Below, one piece after another: positions 20 through 1,152 of a stretch of 64,000 nt of DNA (position 1 is its first letter; every line of letters starts with the position of its first letter). Source of the DNA: the human T2T-CHM13v2.0 reference genome, Homo sapiens; NCBI RefSeq assembly GCF_009914755.1, contig NC_060944.1; one strand, given 5' to 3'. The translations under genes were made by a program, and so were the position numbers. The notes below the pieces were generated by a model, which had not been told where the DNA came from, did no database searches, and worked only from the letters and a program-made list of their open reading frames with translations.

Positions 20-1152
20 AACTGTCAAATTTCTCTGCAAATAAACATTATCCCGCCAAGGGAAGATGATAAACACAATTCTGCCTGTTTACTGAACACC
101 TTCATTAGCAAGGGTCCCAACTGTGGCAAAGTGGCAGAAATTCAGAGCAAATGGATACCGTGATGTATCCAGATCCTGGAGTTGATGCTGCCAGGGAAAA
201 GCATCCACTAGATCTGAATGTCTTCTAAATGTGCTCATTTGGAAAGATCACACAAATATTAGATAAGAAAAAAATTTCAGAGAGAGAAGGGGGGGTAAAT
301 TCTCCAGCTTGTGGACTTGTTTTAAACTTGGGTACCATTCAAAGGAAAAACATTGTTAGAATGTAAAACAGCCTTGCTGTTTGTGATCAACTATTTTAAA
401 ATACAGTTTTAGGCCAGGCGCGGTGGCTTATGCTTGTAATCCCAGCACTTTGAGGGGGGCCAAGGTGTGCGGATCACAAGGTCAGGAGTTTGAGACCAGC
501 CTGGCCAACACAGTGAAACCCTGTCTCTACTGAAAAAAAAAAAAAAAAAATAGCTGGGCGTGGTGGCGAGCGCCTGTAATCCCAGCTGCTTGGGAGGCTG
601 AGGCAGGAGAATTGCTTGAACCCAGGAGGCGGAGGTTGCAGTGAGCCGAGATCGTGCCACTACATTCCAGCTTGGGAGACAGAGTGAGACTCTGTCTCTA
701 AAAAAATATATATACAGTTTTAATCTCTTTAGTCATTATGCTGTTCTGAGGGCCATCACAGTTTAAGCAGAGAGCCTAGTGTTAGAAATTTATAGGGTGC
801 TTTTTCTTAATATATACAAGTTTGTGTGACAGAGAGTAAATATTGGGCTCTTTTTGGCTCACAGAGTGGAGCCAGGAGTTAGCAATGAGTCTCACTCTGC
901 AAATCCTGCTGGGTGTGAGCTGTGTTCTAAACCTTGTGGCAGTGTTAAATATATTAAGCTAATCATGTGGAAGTTAACCAGAGGCCCCTTCACATTTGTC
1001 ATGTGGCGTCTGCAGTCATTTGCTCTGAATTTTTGCCACTTTGCCGCAGTTGGGGCCCTTGCTAATGACAGTGTTCAGCAGATTGACAGATTCTTGTGTT
1101 TATCATCTTCCCTGGGTGGGATCGTGTTTATTTGCAGAAGTATTTGACAGTT
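20..1152. repeat. Long non-Alu inverted repeat (arms 20-154 and 1016-1152)
   Basis: Manual alignment: 102-153 pairs with 1017-1068 (49/52 Watson-Crick, ungapped); 59-78 pairs perfectly with 1094-1113. Confidence 0.93.
411..708 (+). mobile_element. Alu (AluS-like)
   Basis: Dimeric Alu with TSD atacagtttta. Confidence 0.93.

What the first reader, a model, noticed from the sequence alone, without database searches (positions are those of the whole stretch)
20..1152. Long non-Alu inverted repeat in SLC9A8 intron with G-U-biased differences: candidate long-range RNA duplex
Seen: 20-154 is the reverse complement of 1016-1152 across an ~860 nt loop that contains a later Alu. The core 102-153/1017-1068 is 52 ungapped pairs, and its only three differences (137/1033, 124/1046, 115/1055) are all G-U wobbles in the SLC9A8 sense RNA. 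A second perfect 20-bp helix lies at 59-78/1094-1113. Over the full arms I count 9 G-U against 4 A-C juxtapositions on the sense strand, a modest bias. The arms resemble no repeat I recognise, and the 3' arm ends ~230 nt upstream of the exon at 1386. Inference: a selected pre-mRNA panhandle of ~130 bp that could be an ADAR substrate or a splicing/intron-retention regulator. Alternatives are an old MITE with long TIRs or a neutral inverted duplication.
Basis: partly seen in the sequence, partly recalled or inferred. Interest (0 to 1): 0.8.

Follow-up and report, generated by a model that had tools for sequence, protein, structure and literature searches.

The report
Single-copy inverted duplication in SLC9A8 intron
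A 134-base stretch of an SLC9A8 intron is present twice in opposite orientation about 860 bases apart, found nowhere else in the genome, and it looks like an old, neutrally decaying local inverted duplication rather than a selected RNA switch.

Summary
The inverted repeat is real. Window 20-153 pairs with 1017-1152 with 116 matches, 18 mismatches and one 2-nt indel.

Whole-genome searches of the T2T assembly find only these two copies. The loop pieces and both flanks are unique too. Four repeat controls of equal length returned 1,448-5,018 candidates. No target-site duplication, arm extension, coding remnant or Rfam match was found. A multi-copy transposon or a pair of interspersed repeats is therefore unlikely.

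The G-U excess is 8 against 4 A-C, or 9 if the 154/1016 pair is included. It is not significant (p=0.19 and 0.13). Per-arm divergence is 6.7% raw and 7.5% corrected. That matches the Alu in the loop, which is 6.4-9.4% from a local Alu consensus, so the arms look neutral.

The sense RNA can form a 123-bp duplex of -201 kcal/mol. The antisense duplex is almost as stable at -190.8 kcal/mol. A neighbouring inverted Alu pair is far stronger at -482 kcal/mol.

Best reading: a primate-age, single-copy local inverted duplication that is at most an incidental dsRNA and ADAR substrate. Cross-species conservation and editing could not be tested here.

The parts
20..153 (.). Left arm of the inverted repeat (134 nt). 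It has three blocks: 20-78 with 7 of 59 differences, 79-101 with 8 of 23 differences plus a 2-nt indel, and 102-153 with 3 of 52 differences.
   Evidence: unique in the genome apart from its partner
1017..1152 (.). Right arm (136 nt), the reverse complement of the left arm. It ends 233 nt upstream of the SLC9A8 exon at 1386.
   Evidence: (85% identity, E=3.7e-35)
154..1016 (.). Spacer or loop of 863 nt, which was 552 nt before the Alu insertion. The non-Alu parts are unique in the genome, show no internal inverted similarity, and have no coding remnant.
412..711 (+). Alu in the gene's sense orientation, with an A-rich tail, inserted in the spacer. It is 9.4% from a local Alu consensus at all sites and 6.4% at non-CpG sites.
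   Evidence: (SRP/Alu-type Rfam hit)
401..411 (.). Left copy of the Alu target-site duplication ATACAGTTTTA. The right copy at 712-722 is identical.
712..722 (.). Right copy of the Alu target-site duplication.
1..30 (.). Cluster of TGTC[A/G]AA / TTTGACA motifs at the outer edge of the left arm, at window -16, -8, 2 and 23. The copy at 23 pairs with the one at 1143. Meaning unknown.
   Evidence: TRF reports no tandem array there

Best explanation
This is a single-copy, locus-specific inverted duplication. About 135 bp of unique intronic DNA was copied in reverse orientation roughly 0.55 kb away, or 0.86 kb if the Alu was already there. That would happen in one replication or repair event of the template-switch or fold-back type.

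The event dates to roughly the time AluS elements were spreading in early anthropoid primates. From 7.5% corrected divergence per arm, the age is about 35-75 My, depending on the assumed rate. Since then the two arms have drifted apart at about the neutral rate.

Because both arms lie in one SLC9A8 intron, the pre-mRNA can fold them into an imperfect duplex of about 123-134 bp. Such a duplex would be an incidental target for dsRNA-binding proteins such as ADAR, until the intron is spliced out and degraded.

Shown here: the repeat, its uniqueness, the lack of transposon hallmarks, neutral-like divergence, and predicted duplex stability. Inferred: the duplication mechanism, the age, formation of the duplex in vivo, and absence of function.
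For: Uniqueness:
- BLAST of the left arm against the 3.1-Gb assembly produced 2 first-look candidates and 2 matches, namely the arm itself and its partner.
- The 52-nt core as a pattern with up to 3 mismatches gave 1 forward and 1 reverse hit, against 0 and 0 for the reversed control.
- Loop pieces 155-384 and 723-1016, the 501-nt left flank and the 233-nt right flank each hit only themselves.
- The same tool returned 2,293, 5,018, 3,036 and 1,448 candidates for four 135-nt repeat controls, with scored matches at 77-99% identity. Copies as diverged as the arms are from each other would therefore have been seen.

No transposon hallmarks:
- No 8-10-nt target-site duplication with at most 2 mismatches, at any of 16 boundary shifts.
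- No extension of similarity into the outer flanks (414 of 500 shuffles score as high) or inner flanks (197 of 500).
- No Pfam match with E-value below 0.09 in the 6 longest non-Alu reading frames I submitted, out of 23 listed.
- Rfam finds only Alu-type matches in the 3,135-nt locus.

Neutral-like decay:
- 12 transitions and 6 transversions; 4 of 18 differences are at CpG sites.
- K2P distance is 0.150, or 7.5% per arm. The embedded Alu is 9.4% from the consensus at all sites and 6.4% at non-CpG sites.
- The G-U excess is not significant. A sense-strand G+T content of 52.6% in the surrounding intron fits the known transcription-associated strand asymmetry (recalled, not tested), which by itself favours G-U over A-C.

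Mechanism precedent: template switching creates inverted repeats from unique sequence in the primate lineage. I read passages of PMC5453318 and the abstract of PMC10710096.
Against: - No repeat library (Dfam or RepeatMasker) was available. A very low-copy or very old transposon family cannot be strictly excluded, nor one whose other human copies have been lost.
- The template-switch events in the passages I read are short, with fragments filtered at a 14-bp length threshold and examples tens of bp long. A 135-bp copy placed 0.5-0.9 kb away is larger than those examples.
- No junction microhomology is visible.
- The core 102-153 is less diverged than the rest (3/52 against 15/82, Fisher p=0.04). 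It has fewer differences than the all-site Alu rate predicts (P(<=3)=0.012). Against the fairer non-CpG rate the shortfall is not significant (P=0.10). This could reflect selection or gene conversion in the core, but the core boundaries were chosen post hoc.
- Unique-sequence inverted repeats of this size are not common. In 264 kb sampled, 342 inverted pairs within 3 kb were found, and this was the only one with otherwise unique arms.
- No outgroup genomes were available, so neutrality rests on one internal yardstick with about 18 events.
Confidence: 0.55

Rival explanations
1. A solitary or very low-copy non-autonomous DNA transposon (MITE-like), about 0.8 kb long before the Alu insertion, with terminal inverted repeats of about 135 bp.
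For: The overall shape fits: long terminal inverted arms around a short non-coding interior. Short TGTCAAA/TTTGACA motifs repeat at the left end, reminiscent of subterminal repeats. The arm divergence falls in the age range when the last primate DNA transposons were active (that range is recalled, not tested here).
Against: There is no other copy in the genome at the sensitivity that finds 77-86% identical members of other families (against controls 11, 12, 24, 26). Siblings from the same burst should be about as similar as the two arms are to each other. No target-site duplication was found at any tested boundary. The motif cluster is present at the left end only. The arm termini (AACTGTC...) do not match the hAT, Tc1/mariner or piggyBac end motifs as I recall them; no library test was possible.
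Confidence: 0.2
2. A selected pre-mRNA panhandle, whatever its mutational origin. On this reading, pairing of the arms is maintained because the duplex regulates SLC9A8 splicing or intron retention, or serves as a dedicated ADAR substrate.
For: The predicted duplex is stable: -201 kcal/mol with 123 pairs, and it is present in the MFE of 1-1200. All three core differences are G-U in the sense strand. The core is less diverged than the rest (Fisher p=0.04). The position is close to a 3' splice site. Unique-sequence inverted repeats are rare locally, 1 in 264 kb.
Against: The G-U against A-C excess is not significant (p=0.19/0.13). Three G-U out of three has a chance probability of 0.04-0.09, before allowing for post hoc choice of the core. 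Six of 18 differences and the indel break pairing outright. The antisense duplex is only about 5% weaker. Whole-arm divergence equals the neutral yardstick. The arms lie in one intron, 233 nt or more from the splice site, so they mask no splice signal. A much stronger inverted Alu pair (-482 kcal/mol, 265 pairs) interleaves with the arms and competes kinetically. SLC9A8 does not occur in the held supplementary files of two catalogues of long-range RNA structures. Those files are only part of the data, because the full lists are distributed elsewhere.
Confidence: 0.1
3. Two independent insertions of the same interspersed repeat family in opposite orientations, like an inverted Alu pair but from an unrecognised family.
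For: This is by far the commonest origin of inverted repeats nearby. 341 of the 342 inverted pairs within 3 kb in a 264-kb sample had arms that recur elsewhere in the sample.
Against: Both arms are unique in the genome apart from each other. Both arms start and end at the same points of the shared sequence, which independent insertions would rarely do.
Confidence: 0.03

Closest known systems
Template-switch or fold-back inverted duplications in primate genomes (Loytynoja & Goldman 2017, PMC5453318; Monttinen et al. 2023, PMC10710096)
   Same: Creates an inverted repeat from unique local sequence in a single event, often in introns. No transposon hallmarks are involved, and the product can fold as an RNA hairpin.
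   Different: The examples I read involve fragments of tens of bp lying close together. Here the arm is about 135 bp and the spacer 0.55-0.86 kb. The event itself cannot be reconstructed without outgroup genomes.
Inverted Alu pairs (IRAlus) as intronic dsRNA and ADAR substrates
   Same: A long, imperfect intramolecular duplex within one pre-mRNA. One such pair lies at the same spot: an antisense Alu at window -861..-551 with the sense Alu at 412-711.
   Different: The arms are unique sequence, not a repeat family. The duplex is shorter and weaker than the neighbouring Alu pair (123 against 265 pairs).
MITEs and non-autonomous DNA transposons with long terminal inverted repeats
   Same: Inverted arms flanking a short non-coding interior.
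   Different: No target-site duplication, no other copies, and no recognisable terminal motif.
Conserved long-range pre-mRNA structures (PCCRs, e.g. ATE1; PMC8052449, PMC7797038, seen as search listings and abstracts only)
   Same: Complementary intronic segments hundreds of nucleotides apart, near a splice site.
   Different: Those are defined by cross-species conservation and compensatory change and are typically much shorter helices. Here conservation is untested, and the human sequence alone looks neutral.

Membership tests
DNA transposon / MITE | Terminal inverted repeats | tested here: met
   134/136-nt arms with 116 matches
DNA transposon / MITE | Target-site duplication directly flanking the arms | tested here: not met
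   No 8-10-nt direct repeat with at most 2 mismatches at boundary shifts 0-3 on either side. By eye there is no TA or TTAA at the ends.
DNA transposon / MITE | Multiple dispersed copies in the genome | tested here: not met
   Only the two arms were found. The interior and both flanks are unique. Controls show that families are detected at 77-99% identity.
DNA transposon / MITE | Match to a curated repeat consensus (Dfam/Repbase) | not testable with these tools
   No repeat library is held.
Local inverted duplication (template switch / fold-back) | Both copies unique to one locus and close together, in opposite orientation | tested here: met
Local inverted duplication (template switch / fold-back) | Outgroup species carrying only one arm at the orthologous site | not testable with these tools
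   No other vertebrate genome is held.
Local inverted duplication (template switch / fold-back) | Junction microhomology or an inverted spacer | tested here: inconclusive
   No microhomology is seen by eye at 19/20, 153/154, 1016/1017 or 1152/1153. After 13% divergence, absence means little.
Selected long-range RNA structure | Stable complementarity in the transcribed strand | tested here: met
   -201 kcal/mol and 123 intermolecular pairs; the arms pair in the MFE of 1-1200
Selected long-range RNA structure | Excess of structure-preserving over structure-breaking differences, specific to the sense strand | tested here: not met
   8 G-U, 4 A-C, 6 other; p=0.19-0.22. The antisense duplex is -190.8 kcal/mol.
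Selected long-range RNA structure | Cross-species conservation with compensatory substitutions | not testable with these tools
   No orthologous sequences are available. SLC9A8 is absent from the held supplement text of PMC8052449 and PMC10691357, which do not hold the full catalogues.
ADAR substrate | Long intramolecular dsRNA | tested here: met
   Prediction only
ADAR substrate | Observed A-to-I sites in the arms | not testable with these tools
   No RNA-seq data or REDIportal. The 7 papers holding 'SLC9A8' and 'RNA editing' were seen as a listing. I opened one, and it mentions the gene only as a qPCR target.

The most novel reading that the evidence does not exclude
A primate-specific, de novo regulatory dsRNA. 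On this reading, one inverted-duplication event created a unique 134-bp panhandle in SLC9A8 pre-mRNA. Its 52-bp core (102-153/1017-1068, with only G-U differences) has since been kept paired by selection. It would act as a non-Alu ADAR or dsRBP docking site that tunes splicing or retention of the intron before exon 1386-1468.
Probability: 0.07. Interest if true: 0.55.

Novelty: new member of a known kind. Interest (0 to 1): 0.2.

Why it matters
If the reading is right, the feature is a tidy example of how unique-sequence inverted duplications add long dsRNA to human introns without transposons. It is also a cautionary case. An apparent G-U bias in a young inverted repeat can arise from small numbers and from transcription-strand mutation asymmetry.

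It would matter more only if primate alignments or editing and crosslink data showed the core helix to be maintained. The locus would then be a rare non-Alu, lineage-specific structured RNA element with a datable birth.

Tried and rejected
- A sequence-only covariance model of the two arms was built, but the human genome cannot be searched with a model. Deeper family detection was therefore limited to BLAST and a 52-nt pattern with up to 3 mismatches.
- My first three 'repeat' controls all turned out to be Alu-type. The fourth is a very young SVA-like element. No control from a mid-copy DNA-transposon family was obtained.
- Rfam at E<=1 gave only Alu/SRP-type and Alu-derived miRNA-family hits, none in the arms.
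- TRF found no tandem array at the left boundary despite the motif cluster.
- Six non-Alu reading frames of the 23 listed gave no Pfam match. The only hit, Fer4_21, had E-value 0.092 and 13.3 bits against a 35-bit cut-off.
- Literature searches found nothing on this element: SLC9A8 with 'RNA editing' (7 papers), 'inverted repeat' (2) and 'dsRNA' (4) (listings only, one paper opened).
- Supplements of PMC8052449 (5 files) and PMC10691357 (1 file) hold no 'SLC9A8'.
- I requested 20 kb per region from the genome, but only 10 kb each was given, so the base-rate sample is 264 kb rather than 464 kb.

Full report
**Observation**

Reading the window and scanning for inverted repeats shows two ungapped inverted blocks. 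These are 73-153/1017-1097 (81 nt, 84%) and 20-78/1094-1152 (59 nt, 88%). A gapped local alignment joins them into one pair of arms, 20-153 and 1017-1152, with 116 matches, 18 mismatches and a single 2-nt indel.

- The 52-nt core 102-153/1017-1068 has three differences, at 115/1055, 124/1046 and 137/1033. All three are G-U in the SLC9A8 sense RNA.
- 59-78/1094-1113 is a perfect 20-bp helix.
- The spacer of 863 nt carries an Alu at 412-711, flanked by a perfect 11-nt target-site duplication at 401-411 and 712-722. The spacer was 552 nt before that insertion.

I count 8 G-U, 4 A-C and 6 non-pairing juxtapositions.

**Is it a repeat family?**

The assembly that holds the window (T2T, 3.1 Gb) can be searched.
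- The left arm finds two places only, itself and its partner at 85% identity with E=3.7e-35. The first look produced just 2 candidates.
- The 52-nt core as a pattern with up to 3 mismatches finds one forward and one reverse site, against none for the reversed control.
- The two non-Alu halves of the spacer, 501 nt of left flank and the 233 nt between the right arm and the exon each find only themselves.

The same tool does find families. Four 135-nt pieces of masked repeats from this window gave 2,293, 5,018, 3,036 and 1,448 first-look candidates. Of these, 40 were scored each time, at 77-99% identity.

There is a caveat. Three of these controls proved to be Alu-type and the fourth a young SVA-like element. 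I therefore have no control from a mid-copy DNA-transposon family. Even so, members of a transposon burst should resemble each other about as much as the two arms resemble each other (85%). That level is well within what the tool detects.

**Transposon hallmarks**

- No 8-10-nt direct repeat with at most 2 mismatches flanks the arms at any of 16 boundary shifts.
- The similarity does not continue into the outer flanks (414 of 500 shuffles score as high) or the inner flanks (197 of 500).
- None of the 6 non-Alu reading frames I submitted, out of 23 frames of at least 35 aa, matches Pfam. The only hit has E-value 0.092 and is far below its cut-off.
- Rfam at E<=1 reports only Alu/SRP-type hits in the 3,135-nt locus.

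One oddity remains. The motif TGTC[A/G]AA/TTTGACA occurs four times within 40 nt at the left boundary, at window -16, -8, 2 and 23. At the right end it occurs only once, at 1143. TRF sees no array there. I cannot explain this. It is weak support for subterminal repeats of a mobile element, and it could equally be local slippage.

**Selection or drift?**

The differences are 12 transitions and 6 transversions, and 4 of the 18 lie at CpG sites. The statistical tests on the G-U excess are as follows:

| Comparison | One-sided p |
|---|---|
| 8 G-U against 4 A-C | 0.19 |
| 9 G-U against 4 A-C | 0.13 |
| 8 G-U among 18 differences, against an expected one third | 0.22 |

The surrounding intron has 52.6% G+T on the sense strand. 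That is the direction expected from transcription-associated mutation asymmetry (recalled knowledge), which alone would tilt inverted repeats towards G-U.

The antisense duplex is almost as stable as the sense one: -190.8 against -201.0 kcal/mol, with 119 against 123 pairs.

As a neutral yardstick I used the Alu in the spacer. Against a majority consensus of the 41 long Alu copies in the window, it differs at 9.4% of all sites and 6.4% of non-CpG sites. The arms differ from each other at 13.4%, with K2P 0.150, which is 6.7-7.5% per arm. The arms have therefore decayed about as fast as a presumably neutral element of AluS-like age. With rates of 1.0-2.2e-9 per site per year this gives about 34-75 My (the rates are assumed).

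The one hint of heterogeneity is that the core is less diverged than the rest (3/52 against 15/82, Fisher p=0.04). Against the non-CpG yardstick the core's deficit is not significant (P(<=3)=0.10), and the core was delimited after seeing the data. Block 79-101 carries 8 differences and the indel within 23 nt. That looks like one or two complex mutations rather than steady decay.

**RNA context**

The sense RNA of 1-1200 folds with all 123 arm-arm pairs in its minimum-energy structure, so the duplex is plausible in pre-mRNA.

It is not alone. An antisense Alu upstream (L001 about 620-930, window about -861..-551) and the sense Alu in the spacer form an inverted pair. That pair is predicted at -482 kcal/mol with 265 pairs. 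The order along the RNA is Alu, left arm, Alu, right arm, so the two duplexes interleave like a pseudoknot. The Alu pair can close before the right arm is even transcribed.

Both arms lie in one intron and stop 233 nt short of the 3' splice site, so no splice signal is sequestered.

**How unusual is it?**

In 264 kb (the window plus twenty 10-kb stretches upstream), 342 inverted pairs with arms of at least 60 nt lie within 3 kb of each other. All but this one have arms that recur elsewhere in the sample, which means interspersed repeats. In the window itself the only other non-Alu-flagged inverted pair is 18.5 kb apart and 70% identical, and it belongs to a large repeat family. Unique-sequence inverted repeats of this size are thus uncommon but, extrapolating, not singular.

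**Interpretation**

The evidence fits a one-off local inverted duplication of unique intronic DNA. Template switching during replication is a documented source of new inverted repeats and hairpins in primate genomes (passages of PMC5453318; abstract of PMC10710096). The examples I read are much shorter than this one.

A solitary MITE remains possible (about 0.2). A selected panhandle is not excluded (about 0.1), but nothing in the human sequence requires it. Two independent repeat insertions are nearly excluded.

**Literature**

Nothing in print on this element was found. I searched 'SLC9A8' with 'RNA editing', 'inverted repeat' and 'dsRNA'. The one opened paper mentions the gene only as a qPCR target. 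The held supplement files of two long-range-structure catalogues do not contain the gene, but those files are not the full catalogues.

**Verdict**

This is a real, statistically unambiguous, genome-unique inverted repeat. It is most likely a neutral primate-age inverted duplication that makes an incidental intronic dsRNA. Interest is low to moderate until comparative or RNA data say otherwise.

Noticed in passing
L001 about 620-930 (window about -861..-551, minus orientation) with window 412-711: An inverted Alu pair about 960 nt apart, predicted to form 265 intermolecular pairs at -482 kcal/mol. It interleaves with the unique-sequence arms and is the more likely dominant dsRNA and ADAR substrate of this intron segment.
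   Followed up: partly
window -16..30 (L001 1465-1511): Four copies of TGTC[A/G]AA / TTTGACA in alternating orientation within 40 nt, at the outer edge of the left arm. They form small local hairpins. There is no counterpart cluster at the right end, and TRF reports no array.
   Followed up: partly
window 44571-46718 (tested piece 45500-45634): A roughly 2.1-kb masked element in the LOC105372653 intron has 1,448 first-look candidates; the primary full-length match of each of the 40 scored places was 97-100% identical, with weaker offset matches alongside. An internal offset match of about 78 nt suggests a VNTR. It looks like a young SVA-type retroelement; the name is recalled and not tested against a library.
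   Followed up: partly
window 36349-36559 and 55075-55271: An inverted pair at 70% identity, 18.5 kb apart, which escaped my Alu filter. A 135-nt piece has 3,036 genomic candidates and shares a hit site with an old Alu query, so it is probably an old Alu-related monomer family.
   Followed up: partly
window 79-101 / 1069-1093: Eight of the 18 arm differences, plus the only indel, are packed into 23 nt. This suggests one or two complex mutation events in one arm rather than independent point substitutions.
   Followed up: no
whole window: Using the Alu at 412-705 as a BLAST query against the window gave 53 hits at E<=1e-20, 41 of them at least 260 nt long. Non-CpG divergence from their consensus ranges from 4% to 20%, so the 64 kb holds Alus of a wide range of ages.
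   Followed up: no
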